DNA from: an uncultured virus (IMG/VR IMGVR_UViG_3300020180_000002)
Lineage: Duplodnaviria; Heunggongvirae; Uroviricota; Caudoviricetes
Strand: one strand, 5' to 3'
DNA length: 20,000 nt
IMG/VR virus record: IMGVR_UViG_3300020180_000002
This document shows positions 2,615 through 17,118 of this stretch, piece by piece. The stretch's first letter is position 1. Every line of letters begins with the position of its first letter. The notes beneath the pieces are model-generated. The model saw only the letters and a list, made by a program, of their open reading frames with translations, did no database searches and was not told the origin of the DNA. Position numbers and translations under genes: made by a program.

Positions 2615-2857
2615 ATGACCGAAGAAACTAAAAGTAAGATTGAAACTATACTCATTAGTAGCGTTAATCGTTTATATTCTAAAGAAGAATCAATCGGACT
2701 GGAATATGAAGATTTCAAGGTTTTAGAAATTATTTTTAAAATAGTTAAAGATCATTCAGATACCACCTCTCCTATTTCAACACAAGCCCCTTCTTCAACA
2801 GAAGACATTGTAGAATTATTAAAATCTGTAAGGGGATTTACCCCACGTGGAGAATAA
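2615..2857 (+). CDS. hypothetical protein, candidate terminase small subunit
   Basis: Directly upstream of and overlapping the terminase large subunit; function inferred from position only. Confidence 0.45.
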   Translation: MTEETKSKIETILISSVNRLYSKEESIGLEYEDFKVLEIIFKIVKDHSDTTSPISTQAPSSTEDIVELLKSVRGFTPRGE

Positions 2858-4328
2858 ACCTACTGTAGACCAGGCCGCCGCTGCTGAAAAACTATGGAGA
2901 CTAGGTTTAGTTTCATGGAAATTTCATAATGCCCAATTAGATATCTATCAGGCTATAAATAAATCCACTGCATCTACATTTGTTATAAATGTTGCCAGAC
3001 AGTCAGGAAAATCTTATATGCTTTCCGGGTATGCAATTGAATTTGCTTTACAACACCCCGGTGCTAAAATATGTTTTCTAGCTCCTACAGCAAAAGCAAT
3101 TAAAAAAATTGTTTTACCTCGTATAAAAGAAATTCTTTCCGATTGTCCAAGAGATCTTCTTCCATCATATAAAGTAAATGATCAAGTATATAAATTTAAA
3201 AATGGATCAGAAGTACACCTAGCCGGAACGGACGCAGAACGTGCAGAAAACCTCAGAGGACAAGTATTTCATTTAGTTATATGCGATGAAGCTGGGTTTA
3301 TGAATAAACTAGATTACGTTGTATCTAGTATTCTTAGGCCATTAACAGCCACTGTATCGGGAAAAATTATTCTTTCATCAACTCCTCCAGTTTCACCTTC
3401 TCATCCATTTAAAAAAATATTTGTAGAACAGGCCATCAAAACTGGAAATTATATTAAAAAAACAGTACATGATAATCCTTTAATTTCTGATAAAATTAAA
3501 CAACAATACATGCAAGAATCTGGTGGAGAAGACAGCGTAGCCTGGAGAAGAGAATATTTAGCTGAATTTATTATTGATGAAAATGAAGCAGTTATTCCAG
3601 AAGCTAATGAAAAGAAAGTTGAAAGTCTTATTAAAAAAGTTATACCTAACGGGCATAACATATCAGGTGAACATGAAATAATGGAACCTATGTTCTATGA
3701 TGCATATACGGTAGCTGACCTTGGATATACGGATAACACAGGTATTCTATTTGGATACTGGGATTTCAACCGTGCTACATTAGTTATACAAGATGAAGCT
3801 CTTTTTAACAAACCTAATACACAAACAATTTCTAATATAATTGTTCAAAAAGAAGGCGCCCTATGGGGCCAAAAAAAGCCATATCTTAGGTTTTGTGATG
3901 GAGACCCAATTACTATTAGTGATTTAAATTCAGCCCATCAATTGGCTTTTAGTCAAACTCGTAATGATGAATTAGAAGCTTCAGTTAACTCTGTACGTCT
4001 TTTTATACAAGATAATAAAATTAATATAGATCCAAGGTGTACAAATCTAATTCTTCAATTAAAATCAGCCATCTGGGATAGCAGTCGTAGAAAATTCGCT
4101 AGATCAGGAGATCATGGTCATTTTGACTTAATTGCTGCATTGATATACATGGTTCGTAATATCCGTAGAGCACGCAACCCTAACCCAACTGGATACGGAA
4201 CTAGTATTGATAATATGTACCTTCCTCCTGATAATTTTGTTGCAAAAGATAATAGTAACTTACAAAAATTAGTATCAGAGCCAATGAAAAAATATTTCCC
4301 AGGACATTCAGGAAATGATAAGGGTTAA
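2847..4328 (+). CDS. terL: terminase large subunit
   Basis: Walker A VARQSGKS, Walker B LVICDEAG, motif III SSTP, RNase H-like nuclease acidic residues (VADLGYTD, HFDLIAAL); GTG start. Confidence 0.95.
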   Translation: MENKPTVDQAAAAEKLWRLGLVSWKFHNAQLDIYQAINKSTASTFVINVARQSGKSYMLSGYAIEFALQHPGAKICFLAPTAKAIKKIVLPRIKEILSDCPRDLLPSYKVNDQVYKFKNGSEVHLAGTDAERAENLRGQVFHLVICDEAGFMNKLDYVVSSILRPLTATVSGKIILSSTPPVSPSHPFKKIFVEQAIKTGNYIKKTVHDNPLISDKIKQQYMQESGGEDSVAWRREYLAEFIIDENEAVIPEANEKKVESLIKKVIPNGHNISGEHEIMEPMFYDAYTVADLGYTDNTGILFGYWDFNRATLVIQDEALFNKPNTQTISNIIVQKEGALWGQKKPYLRFCDGDPITISDLNSAHQLAFSQTRNDELEASVNSVRLFIQDNKINIDPRCTNLILQLKSAIWDSSRRKFARSGDHGHFDLIAALIYMVRNIRRARNPNPTGYGTSIDNMYLPPDNFVAKDNSNLQKLVSEPMKKYFPGHSGNDKG

Positions 4329-4369: not shown

Positions 4370-6379
4370 ATGTCAAATAATTATAATGAATATTTCGCCT
4401 CCCTCCCAGGGCCAGAAATTGCAGCTGAATTAGAAAAACGTCATGACACGTGGTATAACAACATTGGCGCCAGTGGTGTTTATCGTAAGATGCGTAAATC
4501 TTATGCAGCTTATTATGGATACAATACAACAGGCGCTGGACACACTGCATCTGAACAAGTAAAAGCCGGAGAACAAGGCGAACTTACTCTTATAAAAGCT
4601 AATCATTTTCGTAACTTAATTCAACATCTTCTTGTTATGACAACTTCTAGCCGTCCATCTATGGATGCACGTGCTATTAATACTGATTATAGATCTATAG
4701 CTCAAACTGTTCTTGCAAATGGAATTCTCGATTATTACATGAGAGAAAAACGTCTAGAACGTTATTTGAAACAAGCTACTGAATATGCCCTAGTATTTGG
4801 AGAAGGGTATATTCGTTTAGAATGGGATACATCTGAAGGTGATGAATATACAGTGGATCCAGAATCTAATAAAATTACATATACTGGTGATATAAAATAT
4901 ACTATTTTAAATCCACTAGATGTAATTAAAGATGTATTTAAAACAGATGACAATGATAACCAATGGTTGATTGTACGTCATTATAAAAATAGATTCGAAT
5001 TGGCCGCTAAATACCCTGAACTTAAAGATGAAATATTAGCCGCTAAAACAAAAGATGAACTAGATATTAATTTTAATTCTAGATTTATCGTAAGTGGTGA
5101 TTTTCGTTCAGATTTAATCCCTGTATATGAATTTTACCATGAAAAGTCAGATGCCCTACCAAATGGACGTCAAGTTGTTTATGTAAATAAAGAAACGATT
5201 CTTTTTGATGGACCCCTTCCATATAAGCATATCCCTGTGTACAGAATCGCCCCAGGTGAGTACATGGGCACCCCAAATGGATATACTGTCGCTTTTGACC
5301 TAATTGCTCTACAAGAGACATTAGACGGCCTTTATTCGGTAGTGGTAACAAATCAATCTACCTTCGGTGTTCAAAATCTACTTTTACCCCAAGGTCATAA
5401 TATTTCATATAGTTCATTACCAGGCGGCCTTAATGTTATTGAATATGACGCTTCGGTTGGTAAACCAGAGGCCCTTAATTTAACAAAAACTCCACCTGAA
5501 ATCTTTAGTTTTATTGATAAAATTGAATCAGTAATGGAAACTATATCCGGCGTTAACTCTGTATCTAGAGGTAACCCAGAAGCTAATTTACGATCAGGTA
5601 ATGCACTTGCTCTTATTCAATCAATGGCGATCCAATTTAACTCTGGATTACAACAGTCATATGCTCAACTTCTTGAAGATGTGGGCACCGCCACTCTTAC
5701 CACATTAAGAGACTTTGCTGCTACCCCTAGAGTTGCAATGATTGTAGGTAAAAATAATAGATCGTTTATGAAAGAATTTACTGGCAATGATCTTGATAAG
5801 ATCAATCGAGTAGTTGTAGATATGGGTAACCCTTTATCTCGTACAACAGCTGGTAAATTAGAAATGGCCAGTAATCTTTTACAACAAGGCATTATTAAAA
5901 ATGCACAAGATTATATCATGGTAATGAAAACTGGTAATCTTGATATGATGTTAGAAGGCGACGTAAGTGAACTTTCTAATATTAAATCTGAAAATGAAAG
6001 ATTATCAGAAGGTAAACAAGTTATTGTAATTGTAACTGATGAACATGTTACTCATATTAAAGAACATAAATCAGTAATTGCTTCTCCAGATGCAAGAGAA
6101 AATCCAGAAGTAGTTAAAGCTGTATTAGATCATATTCAACAACATATTGAGCAACTAAAAACTGCAGACCCTAACCTTTTAAATATACTAGGTCAGCCTT
6201 CATTAGCCCAACCTCAAGGTGCACCTATGCCTGAAGGCGCTCCAGCTCCCGGAGGTCCCTCATCAGGTGCTGCCCCTATGGACCCTAATAATGCAGCCCC
6301 CCAAGAACCTGGAATGCCAGGATTACCAAAAGATCCTATTACTAATCAACCGCCTAATATACCAGGAGTAAACTCTTAA
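4370..6379 (+). CDS. portal protein
   Basis: 669 aa directly after terL, SD AAGGA; portal-like segments (YALVFGEGYIRLEWD, METISGVNSVSRG); Pro-rich C-terminal tail. Confidence 0.88.
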   Translation: MSNNYNEYFASLPGPEIAAELEKRHDTWYNNIGASGVYRKMRKSYAAYYGYNTTGAGHTASEQVKAGEQGELTLIKANHFRNLIQHLLVMTTSSRPSMDARAINTDYRSIAQTVLANGILDYYMREKRLERYLKQATEYALVFGEGYIRLEWDTSEGDEYTVDPESNKITYTGDIKYTILNPLDVIKDVFKTDDNDNQWLIVRHYKNRFELAAKYPELKDEILAAKTKDELDINFNSRFIVSGDFRSDLIPVYEFYHEKSDALPNGRQVVYVNKETILFDGPLPYKHIPVYRIAPGEYMGTPNGYTVAFDLIALQETLDGLYSVVVTNQSTFGVQNLLLPQGHNISYSSLPGGLNVIEYDASVGKPEALNLTKTPPEIFSFIDKIESVMETISGVNSVSRGNPEANLRSGNALALIQSMAIQFNSGLQQSYAQLLEDVGTATLTTLRDFAATPRVAMIVGKNNRSFMKEFTGNDLDKINRVVVDMGNPLSRTTAGKLEMASNLLQQGIIKNAQDYIMVMKTGNLDMMLEGDVSELSNIKSENERLSEGKQVIVIVTDEHVTHIKEHKSVIASPDARENPEVVKAVLDHIQQHIEQLKTADPNLLNILGQPSLAQPQGAPMPEGAPAPGGPSSGAAPMDPNNAAPQEPGMPGLPKDPITNQPPNIPGVNS

Positions 6380-7165: not shown

Positions 7166-7365
7166 TGGCAGCTACTCCACAAATAGTTTTTAATCCATTC
7201 ACTGGAACCTTTGATTATATAGGATCAAATACAGATGGATTTAGTTGGTATAATATACCAGTTGGAGGTACAGTAACTATTGATAATAATAGAGAAATGG
7301 TTACAACTTCGCCTCAAACAGTTTTAGGTACTTTAACTATATTAGGTAGGAATACGGTGCTTTAA
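7165..7365 (+). CDS. small hypothetical virion protein
   Basis: TAATG translational coupling at both ends. Confidence 0.65.
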   Translation: MAATPQIVFNPFTGTFDYIGSNTDGFSWYNIPVGGTVTIDNNREMVTTSPQTVLGTLTILGRNTVL

Positions 7366-8921
7366 TGAGTGAAATTAGATTAAAAGAAGATACAGCACCA
7401 GGTACGCCTCCTGCCGGATTAGTTTCAATTTATGTTAAAACAGACGGTAAACTTTATATTAAAGATGACGCTGGAGTTGAAACTCCGGTAGGTTCTGTAG
7501 AATCAGTAAATGGTTATACAGGTATAGTTGTACTTACTAAAGCTGACATTGGGCTCGGAAATGCAGACAATACTTCTGATGTAAACAAACCAGTATCTAC
7601 TGCACAGGCTGCTGCAGATTCAGCAGTACAGGCATTTTCAATCCAACGAGCTAATCATACAGGTACTCAATTAGCTTCAACAATTTCAGACTTTAATACA
7701 ACAGCAAGAGGACTTCTTTCAGGAACGGCTCCAGTTAATTATAATTCAGGTTCTGGCGCTATATCAATTCCTAAAGCCGATAGCGTAACTGATGGATATT
7801 TAAGTGCCGCAGACTTTGTTATTTTTAGTAGTTCAGCTGGTGGAGATGTAGCTGGACCAGTCAGTTCAACAGATAACGCTATTGCTAGATTCGATTTAAC
7901 AACTGGTAAATTAATACAAAATTCTGTAGTAACTGTCGATGACACTGGAATATTAGCAGGTGCTAGTATTTCTGCTTCTAGTAATACTTTAACTAATATA
8001 GCTAATACTTCAATATCAGCTTCAGCAGCTATTGACTATTCTAAACTTTCATTATCAGCTTCAATTGTTAATGCCGATATTAATGCTTCAGCAGCTATTG
8101 CTTACAGTAAGTTAGCTTTATCTAACTCAATTGTTAATGCAGACATTAATGCATCAGCCGCAATTGCTTATAGTAAGTTAAATCTATCAGCATCTATTGT
8201 TAATGCAGACATTAATGCATCAGCAGCTATTGCTTATAGTAAGTTAAATCTATCAGCATCTATTGTTAATGCTGATGTTAGTGCTTCAGCAGCTATTGAC
8301 TATTCTAAACTTTCATTATCAGCTTCAATTGTTAATGCCGATATTAATGCTTCAGCAGCTATTGCAGGAAGTAAAATTAATCCAGATTTTGGTGCTCAGA
8401 ATATAGTTACAACAGGTTCAGGTACATTTAGCGGAACATTTGATTTAGCTCAAATAGCCACTCCTTCTAATCCCACTGCAAGTCGAAATAGAATTTACCC
8501 TAAATCAGACGGTAATTTCTATAAACTAAACTCTTCTGGAACAGAAGTAAATATAGCAACCGGACTACGTACTATAGGATTAACTATTGACGGAGGCGGA
8601 TCTGCTATTACTACAGGAGTTAAAGGCTACATAGAGGTTCCTTATACGGGAACTATTACGGGCTGGACTATTTTAGGCGATGTATCAGGATCTATGGTAG
8701 TTGATGTATGGAAAGATACTTATGCTAACTATCCTCCTACTGTAGCAGATACTATTGCAGGAACTGAAAAACCTACAATCAGTGCAGCTTTAACAGGACA
8801 AGACTTAAGTCTATCAACCTGGACTACATCGGTTACCGCAGGAGACATCATTGGCTTTAATGTAGACAGCTGCAGTACTATAACAAGAGCAACTCTAGTA
8901 ATAAGGATATTACCATCGTAA
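7365..8921 (+). CDS. tail fibre-like protein with five 22-aa repeats
   Basis: Fibre-type segments (SVNGYTGIVVLTKADIGLGNADNTSD, RANHTGTQLASTISDF, GPVSSTDNAIARFD) and repeats ASAAIxYSKLxLSASIVNADI. Confidence 0.75.
   Translation: MSEIRLKEDTAPGTPPAGLVSIYVKTDGKLYIKDDAGVETPVGSVESVNGYTGIVVLTKADIGLGNADNTSDVNKPVSTAQAAADSAVQAFSIQRANHTGTQLASTISDFNTTARGLLSGTAPVNYNSGSGAISIPKADSVTDGYLSAADFVIFSSSAGGDVAGPVSSTDNAIARFDLTTGKLIQNSVVTVDDTGILAGASISASSNTLTNIANTSISASAAIDYSKLSLSASIVNADINASAAIAYSKLALSNSIVNADINASAAIAYSKLNLSASIVNADINASAAIAYSKLNLSASIVNADVSASAAIDYSKLSLSASIVNADINASAAIAGSKINPDFGAQNIVTTGSGTFSGTFDLAQIATPSNPTASRNRIYPKSDGNFYKLNSSGTEVNIATGLRTIGLTIDGGGSAITTGVKGYIEVPYTGTITGWTILGDVSGSMVVDVWKDTYANYPPTVADTIAGTEKPTISAALTGQDLSLSTWTTSVTAGDIIGFNVDSCSTITRATLVIRILPS
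8019..8364 (+). repeat. five 66-bp coding tandem repeats (22 aa)
   Basis: Units start at 8019, 8085, 8151, 8217, 8283; units 1 and 5 are identical in nucleotide sequence. Confidence 0.9.
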
Positions 8922-12182: not shown

Positions 12183-12488
12183 ATGTTTAAATATTTATCT
12201 TTACTTGTATTCATATCAGCCTGCTCAGGCCCACAAGGGGAATCCACCCCTTATACAAGAGGTAAAGCTGTTTATAATTCCGAATGCACATCATGTCATA
12301 ATACTAATCCAGATCTAGATGGAAGCGTAGGGCCAGCCCTTAGAGGAAGCTCATACGCTTTAATCTATAATAAATTGATATTAGGCACGTATCCAGAAGG
12401 ATATACCCCAAAGCGTAATAGCAATTTAATGCCTAAATTCACAGGGTTATATCCAGATACCCCTGATTTATATTTCTACTTAAAATAA
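12183..12488 (+). CDS. lipoprotein mono-haem c-type cytochrome
   Basis: Signal peptide with lipobox ISA-C; RGKAVY..ECTSCH (CxxCH); GPAL motif; candidate distal Met in LMPKF. Confidence 0.88.
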   Translation: MFKYLSLLVFISACSGPQGESTPYTRGKAVYNSECTSCHNTNPDLDGSVGPALRGSSYALIYNKLILGTYPEGYTPKRNSNLMPKFTGLYPDTPDLYFYLK

Positions 12489-12704
12489 ATTTATATTTAA
12501 TAAGTATATTGTACCTAGAAATAGGTATATCGAACTTATTCTCTAGCTAATAAGGATGTTTAATAGACTACCCTCTAAAAGCTAACCTGAGAATGATACT
12601 TCAAAATAACAAAAATCATTGTAATTTAAGTTTGTGTTGAATCCAAACATTCAGCGAATTTAAAGCAATAAATATAAAATATTTTGAAAAGGAAAATATA
12701 AAAT

Positions 12705-15700
12705 ATGTCAACTCCAAATACAGTCAGTACACTGAACGGCCTTTTTAAATAATTTCTTGAATAGGTGAGGTTTAACCCCTCCTTGACATATATCATAGCG
12801 TATGATATAATGATCAAGAAAAGTATGTGAATTGCTGGAACTCCTGAAATACAGGACAATCAGCAGCCAAGCTGTAGAAATACAGAAGGTTCAGAGACTA
12901 GACATAAAAATTATCCAGATCGCTTAGCGAGTAGGAGATAAAGATGCTTAATAAAGATAAACGAAGTATGATATTAATGCTTATTTTAGGAGATGGAAAT
13001 TTCCATAAAAGAGGCAAAGATAGTTATACTAGCTTAAATATAGATCACGGCACGTCACAGGCTGACTACCAATCATGGAAAGCTCAATTAATTTCTAATA
13101 TTTTTAATAAAGAAATTAAAATGCGACAAGGCCACAAAGGTAAAAGTATCCAAGTTCAATTTACAAATAATGTATTTAGAGCATGGCACAAGTTTACCTA
13201 TCCTGCAAACAAAAAGGATATAGCTAGAATACTTCCATTTATTCGACATCCAGAACTTGCATTTGCCGTATGGCTCATGGATGATGGATATGTTGAACCA
13301 AGTATTTCTAAACTAGCAGATGGTTCTAAAAAGAACTATGGAGCTAGATTTAGATTATTTACTTGTGATCAATCAAATGAAACTCAAGAAATCGTTATCA
13401 AATGGTTAAAAACTAATTTTGATATAGATTCTAAGATTCATTTAGTTAATAGAAAAAAGGATAATAAAACTTATCCATTTATTAAGTTTAATCAAGCCGA
13501 TAGTTTAAAAATATGGGCAAAGATTAGAGAATTTATATTGCAATTTAAAAGTATGCAATATAAATTTAGATATATAGAAGATCTTTATCAATTTAAAATG
13601 TCACAGTGCATACCTAATAGTTAATTCTATTAGATGATATAGTCCATGCCCCTAGTAATAGAGGGAAATATACTAGTAATATTAACTAGTTAAACAGAAG
13701 GAAGTTTACGCTGACAAAATTGAAAATCTGATTCCAGATGGCGTTAAGTTACTAAAATTAGTACCTTATATCGAAGCTGCCAAAGAAATCGGTCGAAAAT
13801 AGTTGATTTTTATATTTAATTTCTTAAAGCTTGTAATTATACTAATTTACAACCACTTTAAGCAAAAGAAAATATAAGAAAATCAAACAAACTGCCGATT
13901 AAAAATTGCGATGTATCGGTGAAGGCTAATTCCTCTGATGAAGGATATGCTAATACCGAGGGCGAAAATAGTGTAATAGCTATGAAGTCCGTAACGCGTA
14001 GGTAATGAAACTCGAAAGAGAATATAAGTACCCAAGAGCCCGCAACACTAGAAATAGTGAAAATGTACGCTGAACTTACGGGAAACTGTAAGAAGTAGAG
14101 GATAAAAAGCCTTTACGATAACATAATTGAATTTGTATCATCAACCCGTAAAGTGTGCGGCCTAATATAACTTATAAGTTATAAGGAAAAATTAAATCTA
14201 ATTGACTTGGAGTTCCTAAAAGAGTATAATGACTCAATAGGATAACAAGGCGGAATAAGTGAAAAAACTTGCACAAGATATACCTCTTAGTAAATTAATA
14301 TCAGATTATTTAGAATTAAATAGCTGTTATAAGGTAGCTAAAAGAAATAATACAAGTGCAACGGCAGTAAAACGGCTTTTAAAAGAAGCCAGAGTGTTAA
14401 GGACTCAAAGTGAAGCTGCTTCTATAAGAAATAAAGAAAACACTGGGATATATGAAAAACTACATACCCCAGAAGTAGCAAAAAAAATAAGTTCATCTAG
14501 AAAAGGTCAACCATCTGCGTTTAAAGGTAAGAAACATACCGAAGAAAATAAACGAAAGATTGGAGAACGATCAAAACAGATGACAGGTGAAAGAAATCCT
14601 AACTATAAAGACGGTAAATATATAAGACGTCCTAGAGATTTTAAAATCCATGAATTTGCTCCTGTTAGAAATAGGACATTTCATAGAGATAACTTTACCT
14701 GCCATTACTGTAAAAAAGTAGGTGGACATTTACATGCACATCATAGATTACCATACTGGGTTAAACCAGAGGCTTTTTTAGATATAGATAATTTAGTAAC
14801 AGTTTGTTCTAAATGTCATTTTCAAAAAGCCCATAATGGTAGCTGGCATAGGTTTAATAAGAACCTAGTGTCAGATGCTCTTCTTATAAAATACTCACTT
14901 AACCGTGAACGACTAAATGATTTAACTCCAGATTAAATACCTGGAGATGCGATAGTCTGACCTTCCAATATAAATAAAATGGAAGAGAGAAACCCGAAGC
15001 GGTTTCTCCGCTCTAGAAATAGAGTAGTAACAAAGAAAGTGACAACTTTCACATGAACAAGGTGTAACGTACGCTGCTGCAGACTCAGGTGCTTTTTCTC
15101 TTGAAAACGCCGTAGCTGCTATCTTCAAAGACGCTCAATTAAACGGATCGCAAATGCTTATTCGTTCACAAATGAGCTATGAAGCTGCTGCACGTGCATC
15201 TAATGATAAAAAAGCTTTCGTAAAAGCTACTTCTCTCATGGTTCAAAACATGGTTAACTCAATGGCTAAACGCCTTGAAATTAGCTGTCTTTATGGACGA
15301 ACAAATATTGGTAAAATTTCAGCAACTTCAGGTACTGTAGGTACTAGAGTGTATACACTAGCTACTGCTAGCTGGGCTTCTGGTATCTGGGCTGGTTCTG
15401 AAAACATGCCTTTGGATGCAACTTCTCTTGCTGTTCCTACAGCATCTGGTGATAAGCTTAACGCGAATGCTCAAATTGTTGTAACTTCTGTAGACCTTAC
15501 TGCTCGTACAGTTTCGGTTTCCGGAAATGCAACCGATTTAACCGCAGTTGATGGTGCTATCGTCGCTGGTGCATTTTTCATTCCACGTGGATCGTTGTTA
15601 AACGACGTATTCGGCTTGGATCGAATTATCACTAACACTGGTACACTTTACAATATCGACGCCTCTGTATACGCTCTCTGGAAAGGGAACGTTTATAGTG

Positions 15701-16161
15701 CAGCTTCTGCAGCTCTTAGTTTCCAAAAGATTCTTGCTGCTGTTGCACTTCCTGTAGAACGCGGTCTTGATCAAGATGTAGTATGTATGCTTTCTCCTAA
15801 GACCTGGGCTAACATTAGTTCAGATCAAGCTGCTCTTCGTATGTATGATGACAGCTATAAGACAAGCAAACTTGAAAACGGCGCTTCTGAATATTGCTTT
15901 CACGGACAAAATGGTAAAATTGACATCGTCAGTTCTATCTATATCAAAGAAGGCGAAGGTTTCGTATTTCCTCCTAAACGATTGAAACGAATTGGCGCTA
16001 TGAACATCAGCTTCAAAATGCCAGGTCGCCAACAACAAGAAGATTTCTTCTTGGAACTTACAAGCTCTGCTGGGTATGAGCTCCGCGCCTATACTGATCA
16101 AACTTTATTTAGCGACTCTCCGGCTAGATTAGTTAAGATCAACAACATCGTTAATACGTAA
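12705..16161 (+). CDS. major capsid protein, spliced: join(12705..12746,13698..13793,14130..14149,15042..16161), 425 aa
   Basis: SD AAGGA plus ATG 12705; the four exons join in frame (1278 nt): MSTPNTVSTLNGLF|KEVYADKIENLIPDGVKLLKLVPYIEAAKEIG|NLYHQPV|QLSHEQGVTY..., continuing into the 15154 ORF; position after scaffold and capsid-like C-terminus. Confidence 0.88.
12783..12811 (+). promoter_or_regulatory. consensus sigma70 promoter within intron 1
   Basis: TTGACA, 17 nt, TGn-TATAAT. Confidence 0.75.
12944..13624 (+). CDS. LAGLIDADG homing endonuclease (two-motif type), intron-encoded
   Basis: Motifs LMLILGDGNF and FAVWLMDDGY; SD AGGAG. Confidence 0.88.
   Translation: MLNKDKRSMILMLILGDGNFHKRGKDSYTSLNIDHGTSQADYQSWKAQLISNIFNKEIKMRQGHKGKSIQVQFTNNVFRAWHKFTYPANKKDIARILPFIRHPELAFAVWLMDDGYVEPSISKLADGSKKNYGARFRLFTCDQSNETQEIVIKWLKTNFDIDSKIHLVNRKKDNKTYPFIKFNQADSLKIWAKIREFILQFKSMQYKFRYIEDLYQFKMSQCIPNS
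13794..14129 (+). mobile_element. group I intron 2 (336 nt, ORF-less, IA-like with P7.1/P7.2 insertion)
   Basis: Exon AAUCGGU pairs with guide GCCGAUU (13894-13900); P3 UUGCG (13906-13910)/CGCAA (14041-14045); P7 GCGUA (13996-14000)/UACGC (14066-14070); P8 CACUA-GAAA-UAGUG; terminal G14129. Confidence 0.9.
14202..14230 (+). promoter_or_regulatory. sigma70 promoter within intron 3
   Basis: TTGACT, 17 nt, TATAAT, ending 28 nt upstream of the HNH GTG start. Confidence 0.7.
14259..14936 (+). CDS. NUMOD3-HNH homing endonuclease, intron-encoded
   Basis: NUMOD3-like KGKKHTEENKRKIGE; HNH/zinc motif RDNFTCHYC..LHAHH..NLVTVCSKCH. Confidence 0.88.
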   Translation: MKKLAQDIPLSKLISDYLELNSCYKVAKRNNTSATAVKRLLKEARVLRTQSEAASIRNKENTGIYEKLHTPEVAKKISSSRKGQPSAFKGKKHTEENKRKIGERSKQMTGERNPNYKDGKYIRRPRDFKIHEFAPVRNRTFHRDNFTCHYCKKVGGHLHAHHRLPYWVKPEAFLDIDNLVTVCSKCHFQKAHNGSWHRFNKNLVSDALLIKYSLNRERLNDLTPD

Positions 16162-16185
16162 TTTAATTACGTTTTAAACATGTTT

Positions 16186-16216
16186 AAAGGGAACTAGTTA
16201 AACTAGTTCCCTTTTT
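16186..16216 (+). terminator. Rho-independent terminator after capsid gene
   Basis: AAAGGGAACTAGT/ACTAGTTCCCTTT inverted repeat plus T-tract. Confidence 0.85.
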
Positions 16217-16252
16217 AATATTTAAAACAATAGAGGTTAATTAGTATACCAC

Positions 16253-16281
16253 TTGACAAACACCCCAGGATATGTTATACT
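16253..16281 (+). promoter_or_regulatory. sigma70 promoter of GIY-YIG gene (probably leaderless transcript)
   Basis: TTGACA, 17 nt, TGn-TATACT; ATG begins 7 nt after the -10 box; no SD. Confidence 0.7.
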
Positions 16282-16287
16282 AAAAAT

Positions 16288-17118
16288 ATGAACTACGGAA
16301 TGATCTATAAAGTAACGAATAAAATTAATGGTAAAATTTACATAGGTCAAACTACAACCAAGCTTAAACGACGATGGAATATGCATAAAAGTGCATCCAG
16401 AAATAATAGAAGCAATTCTGCTCTACATTCATCCATATCAAAATATGGCCACATAAATTTTATCATTGAACCCATCTGTAGTTGCTTTAGTGAAGAAGAA
16501 CTTAATTTAAAAGAAATCTATTTTATTGATACTTTAAATTCTTTAGTTCCAAATGGTTATAATCTAAAATCAGGGGGCAATGCTGGTAAATGGTGTAAAC
16601 AAGCTATTGATGATATTAGTAAAGTTAGAAAACAGTTGGTTGCTCAACCAGAGCATAAAGCAAAAATCACCAAATATTTATTAGATTATAGAGCGTCCAT
16701 CGGTGAAGCAGCAAGTAAACAGCAATCTTCTCTATCAACTAGGGAATACTGGTCAACCCCTGGGAATAAGCTTAAAAAGGCTGACACAGAAAGTGCTAGA
16801 TGGAAAGAGTTAACAGATGAGCAAAAGACAACTCGTCTGTCTGGGTTTCGAGAATACTGGACAGAGGATAAGCTTAAAGAACATTCAGACAAAATGAAAG
16901 CCTTAAAGAGCTGGGAAAAATCCGGCTGTCTGTTAAAGGCACAAGCTGCTACCAGTAAGGCTGTTCGAGTAATTGAAATTTCTACACAAATAGAGCAAGT
17001 ATACAGCAGTAGGGCCAAGTGTACTAAAGCTCTTATGATAACCGCAAAAACTCTTATCGAGATTCTTAATGGCAGTAGATCTAACGAATACAAGGGTTAT
17101 CGTTTTATTCCTATGTAA
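16288..17118 (+). CDS. free-standing GIY-YIG homing endonuclease
   Basis: GMIYKVTNKINGKIYIGQT, RRW..H, ELNLKEIYFI, PNGYN; C-terminal NUMOD1/HTH-like segment. Confidence 0.9.
   Translation: MNYGMIYKVTNKINGKIYIGQTTTKLKRRWNMHKSASRNNRSNSALHSSISKYGHINFIIEPICSCFSEEELNLKEIYFIDTLNSLVPNGYNLKSGGNAGKWCKQAIDDISKVRKQLVAQPEHKAKITKYLLDYRASIGEAASKQQSSLSTREYWSTPGNKLKKADTESARWKELTDEQKTTRLSGFREYWTEDKLKEHSDKMKALKSWEKSGCLLKAQAATSKAVRVIEISTQIEQVYSSRAKCTKALMITAKTLIEILNGSRSNEYKGYRFIPM

What the first reader, a model, noticed from the sequence alone, without database searches (positions are those of the whole stretch)
12705..16161. Major capsid gene split by three group I introns within its first 53 codons
Seen: three U|...G bounded introns (951, 336, 892 nt), each with P1 containing the U-G pair, P10, P3 and P7. 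Removing them restores a 425-aa frame, whereas unspliced RNA stops at codon 16. Established: phage group I introns are best known in nucleotide-metabolism and replication genes; multi-intron genes are known but uncommon. Inference: the most abundant virion protein depends on three splicing events, which could act as a timing or GTP/Mg-sensitive gate. Standard gene callers would truncate the protein to 335 aa.
Basis: partly seen in the sequence, partly recalled or inferred. Interest (0 to 1): 0.85.

Follow-up and report, generated by a model that had tools for sequence, protein, structure and literature searches.

The report
Phage capsid gene with three introns

Summary
Removing 12747-13697 (951 nt), 13794-14129 (336 nt) and 14150-15041 (892 nt) leaves a 1278-nt frame. 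That frame is colinear, without gaps, with the intronless 1278-nt capsid gene of a related phage (L010) and with 425-aa homologues that read straight across all three joins.

All three inserts follow a U and end in G.
- Intron 1 matches Rfam RF00028 when its endonuclease ORF is cut away: 43.1 bits for the 5' half and 15.7 bits for the 3' end. A relative scores 81.2 bits.
- Intron 2 gets no RF00028 match. It belongs to a large phage intron family whose group I core (P3-P9, P3/P7 pseudoknot, extra P7.1) covaries strongly: 33 of 51 pairs have compensatory changes.
- Intron 3 has a covarying P3-P8 core. A relative scores 21 bits against RF00028.

Introns 1 and 3 carry LAGLIDADG and HNH endonuclease genes. 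Intron 2 has no ORF.

In this phage clade, 14 of 53 capsid loci are interrupted in the same N-terminal region.

No RNA data exist, so splicing is inferred. The proposed "timing/GTP gate" has no support. This is a new member of a known kind.

The parts
12705..12746 (+). Exon 1 of the major capsid gene (14 codons, MSTPNTVSTLNGLF), ends in U
   Evidence: colinear with the intronless L010 gene and 425-aa homologues
12747..13697 (+). Intron 1, group I, 951 nt, terminal G at 13697
   Evidence: RF00028 43.1 bits (12785-12912, 3'-truncated) and 15.7 bits (13615-13665, 5'-truncated). Relative intron in L061 scores 81.2 bits.
12753..12765 (+). Intron 1 candidate internal guide. UUUCUU (P10, pairs with the first 6 nt of exon 2) is followed by GAAUAGG (P1, pairs with the last 7 nt of exon 1, U.G at the splice site, one U.U mismatch). 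An alternative guide, GAAAAG, lies at 12818-12823.
   Evidence: read from sequence, coordinates; not resolved between the two
12824..12906 (+). Intron 1 core 5' part: P3 UAUGU 12824-28, P4 box 12830-40, P4' box 12858-68, P7 5' strand GACUA 12896-12900, P3' ACAUA 12902-06
   Evidence: alignment to RF00028; coordinates
12944..13624 (+). LAGLIDADG homing endonuclease gene (226 aa) lying between P3' and J8/7, i.e. in the P8 loop of intron 1
   Evidence: PF03161 LAGLIDADG_2, 74.8 bits, E 1e-20
13633..13645 (+). Intron 1 J8/7 plus P7 3' strand (UAGUC 13640-44)
   Evidence: alignment to RF00028 positions 202-253
13698..13793 (+). Exon 2 (32 codons, KEVY...KEIG), ends in U
13794..14129 (+). Intron 2, 336 nt, no ORF, terminal G. 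Belongs to a group I family with a P7.1 insertion. About 100 nt of AT-rich hairpin sit in the P1 loop.
13894..13900 (+). Intron 2 internal guide GCCGAUU. It pairs with the last 7 nt of exon 2 (AAUCGGU, U.G at the splice site) and lies 5 nt before P3, as in family members.
   Evidence: sequence; family comparison; coordinates
13906..14129 (+). Intron 2 ribozyme core: P3 13906-10 with 14041-45, P4 13916-20, P7 GCGUA 13996-14000 with UACGC 14066-70, then P7.1, P8, P9, P9.1
   Evidence: 97.6% of cells paired, 33 of 51 pairs with compensatory changes, 0 of 500 shuffles as high
14130..14149 (+). Exon 3, a 20-nt micro-exon (NLYHQP plus 2 nt of V), ends in U
14150..15041 (+). Intron 3, group I, 892 nt, terminal G. 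Guide UGU|GCGG at 14154-60, P3 14192-98 with 14919-25, P4 CUUG/CAAG, P6 closing the ORF, P7 14911-15 with 14953-57, P8 14926-31 with 14941-46, then three 3' hairpins.
   Evidence: Uninterrupted relative L058 hits RF00028 at 21.0 bits, E 0.0017.
14259..14936 (+). HNH + NUMOD3 homing endonuclease gene (225 aa, GTG start). It starts in the P6 loop and runs through P6', P7, P3' into P8.
   Evidence: PF01844 26.1 bits, PF07460 29.9 bits; phrog HNH endonuclease; 84% identical to the L011 intron ORF
15042..16161 (+). Exon 4 (372 codons plus stop)
   Evidence: The full-length homologue P0005 matches phrog_14242 major head protein, E 1.3e-12.
16186..16214 (+). Terminator-like hairpin after the capsid gene
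16288..17118 (+). Free-standing GIY-YIG homing endonuclease gene just downstream (context)

Best explanation
The major head (capsid) protein gene of an environmental tailed phage (close relatives have genomes of about 85 kb) is interrupted within its first 53 codons by three group I introns from three different ribozyme lineages. The late transcript must lose all three by the usual guanosine-initiated, two-step transesterification. In each intron an internal guide pairs with the U-ending 5' exon, and each intron ends in G. Only then are the four exons (42, 96, 20 and 1120 nt) joined into the 425-codon frame. Introns 1 and 3 are mobile: they carry a LAGLIDADG and an HNH/NUMOD3 homing endonuclease gene in peripheral loops. 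These enzymes presumably cut intronless capsid alleles of co-infecting relatives, so that repair copies the intron in. Intron 2 has no ORF. Because it lies 96 nt and 20 nt from its neighbours, it is most likely carried along by co-conversion, or it once had a GIY-YIG gene as its relative in L011 still does. Shown here: the insertions, their exact limits, the ribozyme cores and the endonuclease domains. Inferred: splicing, homing, hitch-hiking.
For: Colinearity:
- The spliced DNA aligns to the intronless L010 gene without gaps.
- 425-aa homologues read across all joins.

Boundaries: all three have U(-1) and a terminal G.

Intron 1:
- RF00028 scores 43.1 bits, E 3.4e-10, over model positions 1-162, and 15.7 bits, E 0.025, over positions 202-253, once the ORF is cut away.
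- Its relative in L061 scores 81.2 bits, over the cut-off.

Intron 2:
- blastn relatives occur in 67 phage records, lying in split terminase, capsid and tape-measure genes.
- A 20-mer of its core is found in more than 111 viral contigs.
- RNAalifold independently predicted P3, P4, P5, P6, P7.1, P8, P9 and P9.1.
- With P7 added, 97.6% of cells pair, 33 of 51 pairs have compensatory changes, and slid controls pair at 33-45%.

Intron 3:
- In 7 of 7 family members the 7-bp P3 is fully complementary, with changes at 4 of 7 positions. P4 and P6 each covary in one member, every P8 region contains complementary arms, and P7 is constant.
- L058 scores 21.0 bits, E 0.0017, against RF00028.

Endonucleases.

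Mobility:
- 14 of 53 capsid loci are interrupted at roughly eight or more different N-terminal positions.
- All 12 intron ORFs tested in relatives are GIY-YIG (10) or HNH (2).
- L010 lacks all three introns.
- L011 lacks intron 1, shares intron 3, and has an intron-2-type element 7 nt downstream.
Against: - No RNA evidence: no RNA run holds this sequence, so neither splicing nor its efficiency is shown.
- Whole-window Rfam scans found no group I intron.
- Intron 2 has no RF00028 match even at E<=10 when scanned alone.
- The 3' part of intron 3 has none either.
- All RF00028 scores on the window itself are below the 50-bit gathering score.
- Intron 3's P1 is only 4 bp. P10 is weak for intron 3 and not found for intron 2.
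- Intron 1's guide sequence is ambiguous between two sites.
- Endonuclease activity and target sites are untested.
Confidence: 0.9

Rival explanations
1. The three introns have been co-opted as a regulatory gate: capsid synthesis is timed or made dependent on GTP/Mg2+ or translation state through three obligatory splicing events.
For: Only circumstantial. Capsid protein cannot be made without all three splicings. The 20-nt micro-exon could allow exon skipping, as reported for Twort Orf142 (PMC10136302, passages read).
Against: Close relatives make the same protein with no intron (L010, and 425-aa homologues) or with other introns at other sites. The introns are therefore dispensable and polymorphic, as expected of selfish elements. 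Two of them carry homing endonucleases. No sensor element was seen.
Confidence: 0.06
2. The interrupted gene is a dead or defective allele, or an assembly chimera, that is not spliced into a working capsid mRNA.
For: No transcript data. All RF00028 scores on the window are below the gathering score.
Against: The spliced frame is intact and 87-89% identical to the full-length 425-aa homologues listed first with no indel. The ribozyme cores are conserved with compensatory changes. The same arrangement occurs in G002, G001, L012 and L014 and in contigs of other runs that bridge the exon-intron borders. No second capsid gene was seen in the window.
Confidence: 0.03
3. The inserts are another kind of intervening element: group II introns, inteins, or a translational bypass.
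For: None beyond the lack of Rfam gathering-level matches.
Against: The inserts carry stops in the exon frame, which excludes inteins. No reverse transcriptase or maturase ORF is present, and the only group II model match was a weak one in a relative (15.2 bits against a 49-bit cut-off). The pairing scheme is P3/P7 pseudoknot with P4-P6 and P8, which is that of group I. Inserts of 336-951 nt are, from my own knowledge, far longer than any known translational bypass.
Confidence: 0.01

Closest known systems
Staphylococcus phage Twort Orf142: three group I introns in one gene, with a 23-nt exon between introns 2 and 3 and exon skipping (PMC10136302, introduction passages read, citing Landthaler & Shub 1999, which I did not read)
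   Same: Three group I introns in one phage gene, and a very short internal exon (23 nt there, 20 nt here, 13 nt in relative L011).
   Different: The gene here is the major capsid gene. The three introns belong to three different ribozyme lineages, and two carry homing endonuclease genes. Exon skipping was not examined.
Mycobacteriophage LittleE (Cluster J) capsid-gene intron (PMC3706429, abstract and passages read). The same paper cites a capsid-gene intron in lactococcal phage Tuc2009.
   Same: A major capsid gene is interrupted by an endonuclease-bearing intron bounded by U and G. There the authors showed splicing by RT-PCR and by N-terminal protein sequencing across the join.
   Different: That gene has one intron of about 820 bp with the HNH gene on the opposite strand, and the authors left its type unclear. 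Here there are three introns with assignable group I cores, but no experimental splicing data.
Intron-2-type elements in other phages: split terminase of Staphylococcus phage S-CoN_Ph1, split capsid gene of bajarodcaudo virus 1 (annotated 'intron associated endonuclease'), and upstream of the tape-measure gene of Arcanobacterium phage TPWB06
   Same: The ribozyme core is the same (73-95% identical over 66-213 nt) and ends exactly at the downstream exon. All sit in structural or packaging genes.
   Different: Hosts and genes differ. Most relatives carry an endonuclease ORF. The window's copy has none and instead has a roughly 100-nt hairpin in the P1 loop.
Bacillus thuringiensis nrdF group IA intron, whose ORF starts in the P6a loop and spans P7 and the R element; P7.1/P7.2 are drawn as additional pairings (PMC2248736, passages read)
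   Same: The endonuclease ORF runs from a P6 loop into core sequence, as in intron 3. Intron 2 has extra P7.x pairing.
   Different: The endonuclease family (GIY-YIG there), the host gene and the organism all differ.
PhiPA3 intron endonuclease gp210, which interferes with a co-infecting phage (PMC11620839, abstract only)
   Same: An intron-borne homing endonuclease in an essential phage gene, with a possible role in phage-phage competition.
   Different: That role is experimentally shown there. Here it is only a possibility.

Membership tests
Group I intron | 5' exon ends in U that forms a U.G pair with an internal guide sequence (P1) | tested here: met
   Intron 1: CCUUUUU with GAAUAGG (one mismatch), or CUUUUU with GAAAAG. 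Intron 2: AAUCGGU with GCCGAUU, 7 bp, at the family-typical place before P3. Intron 3: CCGU with GCGG, only 4 bp.
Group I intron | Intron ends in G (omega G) | tested here: met
   13697, 14129 and 15041 are G, and the boundaries are fixed by alignment to the intronless gene.
Group I intron | Conserved core: P3-P4-P5-P6, P7, P3', P8, P7' with a P3/P7 pseudoknot, supported by covariation | tested here: met
   Intron 1: RF00028 alignments. Intron 2: 51 pairs, 97.6% paired, 33 with compensatory changes. Intron 3: P3 complementary in 7 of 7 members with 4 of 7 positions covarying, complementary arms in every P8 region, and P4 and P6 each covarying in one member.
Group I intron | Score at or above the Rfam RF00028 gathering cut-off (50 bits) | tested here: not met
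   Whole-window scans gave no match. Intron 1 halves score 43.1 and 15.7 bits. Intron 2 has none at E<=10. Intron 3's 3' part has none. Relatives: L061 81.2 bits (over the cut-off) and L058 21.0 bits. The model works in this library (95.2 bits on another phage intron; 2 of 14 control genomes over the cut-off).
Group I intron | Guanosine-binding site in P7 and GTP-dependent self-splicing | not testable with these tools
   P7 helices contain G-C pairs, but the binding pocket and catalysis need an experiment.
Group I intron | Ligated exons in RNA | not testable with these tools
   No RNA data could be examined.
Subgroup IA (P7.1/P7.2-bearing group I introns) | Extra pairing(s) inserted after the P7 5' strand and before P3' | tested here: inconclusive
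   Intron 2 has a covarying stem (alignment columns 129-133 with 183-187; 4 of 5 pairs covary) exactly there. That P7.1/P7.2 are class-defining peripheral elements comes from PMC3984707 (passage read). The exact placement rule and the IA1/IA2 split are recalled, and no subgroup models were available.
LAGLIDADG homing endonuclease | Pfam PF03161 above its cut-off | tested here: met
   74.8 bits against a 25-bit cut-off, residues 8-187.
HNH homing endonuclease with NUMOD3 | Pfam PF01844 and PF07460 above their cut-offs | tested here: met
   26.1 against 21.4 bits and 29.9 against 20.4 bits. PHROG HNH endonuclease families also match.
Phage major capsid (head) protein | Profile match over the whole length and position in the head-gene module | tested here: met
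   The full-length homologue P0005 matches phrog_14242 major head protein, E 1.3e-12, residues 4-405. PF17236 (which I recall as the SU10 major capsid family) is precomputed for 2 of the 120 listed relatives. Terminase and portal genes lie upstream. Pfam found nothing on the 335-aa ORF itself, there was no PDB sequence match, and the fold was not modelled.

The most novel reading that the evidence does not exclude
The first ~90 codons of this capsid family are a shared homing hotspot. At least three ribozyme lineages and three endonuclease families (LAGLIDADG, HNH, GIY-YIG) pile up there, and tightly packed introns separated by 13-96 nt move as one co-converted cassette. This would keep an ORF-less intron alive and would serve the phage as a weapon against intronless co-infecting relatives. 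In addition, the intron-2 lineage is a very widespread group I clade in phage structural genes that the current Rfam model cannot see, so phage capsid, terminase and tail genes are systematically mis-annotated as fragments.
Probability: 0.25. Interest if true: 0.6.

Novelty: new member of a known kind. Interest (0 to 1): 0.38.

Why it matters
This is a well-resolved natural example of a multi-intron phage structural gene. Three unrelated group I ribozymes, two with different homing endonucleases, are packed into 158 nt of coding sequence and leave a 20-nt micro-exon.

In practice, gene callers report a 335-aa fragment instead of the 425-aa capsid protein, and many database relatives are truncated in the same way. 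Rfam's group I model misses two of the three introns outright. One of those belongs to a family present in more than 111 viral contigs and 67 phage records.

The clade offers intron-plus and intron-minus alleles at several neighbouring sites. That is good material for studying homing, co-conversion and intron-mediated phage competition.

Tried and rejected
**Rfam scans**
- Gathering scan of the whole window: nothing.
- E<=10 scans of 12500-16400 and of intron 2 alone: only chance-level miRNA/snoRNA matches, no group I.
- The same on four phage loci holding intron-2-type cores: nothing.
- RF00028 through the genome search on G002: nothing.
- Intron 3's 3' part alone: no RF00028 match.

**Other searches**
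- blastn of intron 3's 3' part against phages: no match.
- tblastn of exon 4 against the phage collection: one distant record only, 25.7% identity.
- PDB sequence search with the full-length homologue: no hit.
- The window's own assembly is not held, so I worked from handles G001 and G002.
- Earlier findings of this scan: none for this genome.
- tRNA scan of the window: none.

**Sequencing runs**
- No RNA holder is listed, so expression and splicing could not be examined.
- I laid contigs of four DNA runs to look for intron-minus alleles. No contig joins across any intron.
- The single joint reported (15033 to 15115, 24 letters on the short side, depth 2.2, one run) is too weak to use.
- Uncovered bins reflect low depth.

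**Weak comparisons and scans**
- Intron 3 is 83.0% identical between the window and L011, against 76.4% for exon 4. The difference is too small to tell lateral transfer from constraint.
- The promoter scan total (15) is not above shuffles (15.6). Only the placement of the three best sites is suggestive.

**Not done**
- I considered a covariance model of the intron-2 family but did not build it. The model length would probably exceed the calibration limit, and blastn plus covariation already settle homology.
- I did not model the capsid fold.
Full report
**What is there.** The window is part of a tailed-phage head module. It has a large terminase (2847-4328), a P22/SU10-type portal (4370-6379) and further structural ORFs. 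The flagged region starts with an ATG at 12705. Read straight on, the frame stops at codon 16. The only long ORF nearby is 15154-16161, 335 aa.

Exon 4, translated from 15043, finds hundreds of relatives (777 at E <= 0.001 among the 8000 candidates scored). Many of the closest are 425-427 aa long. The sequences of these full-length relatives begin MSTPNTVTTLNGLF KEVYADKIENLIPDGVKLLKLVPYIEAAKEIG NLYHQPV QLSHE.... That is the translation of 12705-12746, 13698-13793, 14130-14149 and 15042 onward, in that order.

At the DNA level the four pieces sum to 1278 nt. They align base for base, without any gap, to the uninterrupted 1278-nt gene of locus L010, which comes from an 84.9-kb viral contig. The limits can slide by 0 to +2 nt (intron 1), 0 nt (intron 2) and 0 to +1 nt (intron 3).

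The protein is a major head protein. The full-length homologue P0005 matches phrog_14242 over residues 4-405 at E 1.3e-12. PF17236, which I recall as the SU10 major capsid family, is precomputed for 2 of the 120 listed relatives. Pfam found nothing on the 335-aa ORF itself, and there is no PDB sequence match.

**The arrangement is real DNA.** It is identical in virus record G002 and 99% identical in contig C14 of genome G001. It recurs in loci L012 and L014. Metagenome contigs from other runs bridge the borders with no differences. One covers 13409-14170, which spans the intron 1/exon 2/intron 2/exon 3/intron 3 borders. Another covers 14894-16191.

**Are they group I introns?** Rfam gave nothing on the whole window or on the 3.9-kb region. 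The model itself works in this library. It scores 95.2 bits on another intron of a Staphylococcus phage and passes the cut-off in 2 of 14 control genomes. The three inserts therefore had to be examined one by one.

*Intron 1* (12747-13697)
- It carries a 226-aa LAGLIDADG endonuclease gene (12944-13624; PF03161, 74.8 bits) between P3' and J8/7.
- When the scan stops at the ORF, the 5' part (12785-12912) matches RF00028 positions 1-162 at 43.1 bits, E 3.4e-10.
- The 3' end (13615-13665) matches positions 202-253 at 15.7 bits, E 0.025.
- A related intron in the capsid gene of L061 is 77% identical over the core. It scores 81.2 bits over the whole model.
- The internal guide is ambiguous. UUUCUU|GAAUAGG (12753-12765) gives a contiguous 6-bp P10 and a 7-position P1 with one mismatch. 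GAAAAG (12818-12823) gives a perfect 6-bp P1 but lies directly against P3. I favour the first and leave it open.

*Intron 2* (13794-14129)
- It has no ORF and no RF00028 match even when scanned alone at E<=10.
- Its last 70-215 nt are 73-95% identical to pieces of 67 phage records from hosts as different as Staphylococcus, Clostridium, Streptococcus, Arcanobacterium and Flavobacterium.
- In the annotated examples those pieces end exactly where a downstream exon begins: a split terminase, a split capsid gene and a tape-measure gene. Two of the three examples also have a homing-endonuclease ORF beside them.
- I aligned 23 non-identical members (23 chosen from the 26 that my motif anchors caught, plus the window and L011; near-duplicates were dropped).
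- RNAalifold predicted P3, P4, P5, P6, a stem just after P7, P8 and two 3' hairpins. Of the 46 predicted pairs, 32 carry compensatory changes.
- Adding the pseudoknotted P7 gives 51 pairs. Of all cells, 97.6% form standard pairs and 33 pairs have changes on both sides. No shuffle of 500 is as high on any measure. Sliding the partners by 1-3 columns drops pairing to 33-45%.
- The order P3, P4-P6, P7, extra stem (P7.1), P3', P8, P7', P9, P9.1 is a group I core with the kind of peripheral insertion used to define class IA. PMC3984707 (passage read) names P7.1/P7.2 as class-defining peripheral elements. The placement rule is my recollection.
- In the window, the guide GCCGAUU (13894-13900) pairs with the last seven bases of exon 2, with U.G at the splice site. 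It sits five bases before P3, where relatives have theirs.
- The unusual feature is a roughly 100-nt AT-rich hairpin in the P1 loop. I found no convincing P10.

*Intron 3* (14150-15041)
- It carries a 225-aa HNH + NUMOD3 endonuclease gene (14259-14936). The gene starts in the P6 loop and runs through P6', P7 and P3' into P8. ORFs that extend into core sequence are described for bacterial group I introns (PMC3984707 and PMC2248736, passages read).
- Its 3' part alone gave no RF00028 match and no blastn match in the phage collection.
- Six other capsid-gene introns of related phages share its core boxes.
- In 7 of 7 the 7-bp P3 is fully complementary, with changes at 4 of 7 positions. P4 changes CUUG/CAAG to CUUA/UAAG in one. 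P6 covaries in one. P7 is constant. Every P8 region contains complementary arms, read by eye from the printed sequences.
- The uninterrupted relative L058, scanned alone, matches RF00028 end to end at 21.0 bits, E 0.0017, with the boxes mapped as I had assigned them.
- The window's P1 is short (CCGU with GCGG) and P10 is 3 bp.

**Context and mechanism.** Among 53 capsid loci of this family in viral contigs, 14 are interrupted in the N-terminal region. Three of these are the window type. Four loci that my script also printed had only spurious or slightly short matches and are not counted.

Insertion points, judged from tblastn segment ends, lie near codons 14/15, 46/47, 47-51, 50/51, 53, 54/55, 60/61 and 73-88. 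All 12 intron ORFs tested in relatives are GIY-YIG (10) or HNH (2) endonucleases.

The closest relatives differ in intron content:
- L010 has none of the three introns.
- L011 lacks intron 1.
- L011 shares intron 3 at the same site. The ribozyme plus ORF is 83.0% identical and the endonuclease 84%.
- L011 has an intron-2-type element inserted 7 nt further downstream, with a 184-aa GIY-YIG gene. This leaves a 13-nt micro-exon.

This presence/absence pattern, the endonucleases, and the targeting of the highly conserved NLYHQPV stretch are what is expected of homing introns. The ORF-less intron 2 lies 96 and 20 nt from endonuclease-bearing neighbours. Hitch-hiking by co-conversion is therefore the simplest way to explain its persistence; this is inference.

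The three best sigma-70-like sites of the region each lie just upstream of an endonuclease gene: 12783-12811 (12 of 12 matches), 14202-14230 (11 of 12) and 16253-16281 (11 of 12). The third precedes the free-standing GIY-YIG gene at 16288. The total number of sites (15) is not above shuffles (15.6), so this is only suggestive.

**What is not shown.** No RNA data could be examined, so splicing, its order and its efficiency are inferred. The support is the intact 425-codon product, the conserved ribozyme cores and precedent. Relatives make the same protein without these introns.

**Comparison with what is known.**
- Phage group I introns with homing endonucleases are classical (T4 td, nrdB, nrdD; PMC1865063, abstract seen in a search listing).
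- Capsid-gene introns have been shown to splice in mycobacteriophage LittleE and are cited for lactococcal phage Tuc2009 (PMC3706429, abstract and passages read).
- Three group I introns in one phage gene, with a 23-nt exon and exon skipping, are known from Twort Orf142 (PMC10136302, passages read; the original 1999 paper was not read).

My two paper searches on the topic were 'group I intron' + 'major capsid protein' + 'homing endonuclease' + 'phage' and 'three group I introns' + 'bacteriophage'. Among the 33 papers listed (25 of 45 hits, and 8 of 8), none is, by its title or abstract start, about a capsid gene with three introns. That is a limited search of an incomplete library. I file this as a new member of a known kind.

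**Verdict.** The group I interpretation is supported for all three introns: strongest for intron 1 by model, for intron 2 by covariation, and adequate for intron 3. The regulatory reading is unsupported.

The points of modest interest are:
- the density of introns (three lineages in 158 coding nt, with a 20-nt micro-exon);
- the intron hotspot across the clade;
- the blindness of RF00028 to the very widespread intron-2 family.

Noticed in passing
window 12183-12488 (+): A 101-aa ORF directly upstream of the capsid gene has a CXXCH haem-binding motif (CTSCH) and a lipoprotein-like signal ending in a Cys. It gives weak cytochrome c Pfam matches (PF13442 27.8 bits, PF00034 25.7 bits). A small c-type cytochrome in a phage head module is odd.
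   Followed up: partly
window 16288-17118 (+), with promoter-like site 16253-16281: A free-standing GIY-YIG homing endonuclease gene (276 aa) lies immediately after the capsid gene's terminator. It may target a neighbouring gene of related phages.
   Followed up: partly
L011 1174-3100: A related phage has an intron-2-type ribozyme with a GIY-YIG gene inserted 7 nt downstream of the window's intron 2 site. Intron 3 sits at the same site as in the window. This leaves a 13-nt micro-exon between the two introns.
   Followed up: yes
L066-L17x (viral contigs), L001-L004: The intron-2-type ribozyme family is very widespread in phages. An exact 20-mer occurs in more than 111 viral contigs, and blastn finds 67 phage records. 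RF00028 did not detect it in any of the six copies I scanned: the window, L001-L004 and the terminase intron of S-CoN_Ph1. Many deposited annotations show the host gene as two fragments.
   Followed up: partly
window 12783-12811 and 14202-14230: Near-consensus sigma-70-type promoters lie inside introns 1 and 3, upstream of their endonuclease genes. The one in intron 3 overlaps the P4/P5 ribozyme strands and is conserved in L011 and L015.
   Followed up: partly
window 7365-8921 (+): A 518-aa ORF between the portal and capsid genes matches tail-fibre, minor-tail and virion-structural PHROGs, which is an unusual place for such a gene.
   Followed up: no
G001 contig C14, bases 1-2906: A 2.5-Mb, 97%-complete genome bin holds a contig 99% identical to the window from inside intron 1 onward. 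This could be a hint to the host or a binning artefact. I did not pursue it.
   Followed up: no
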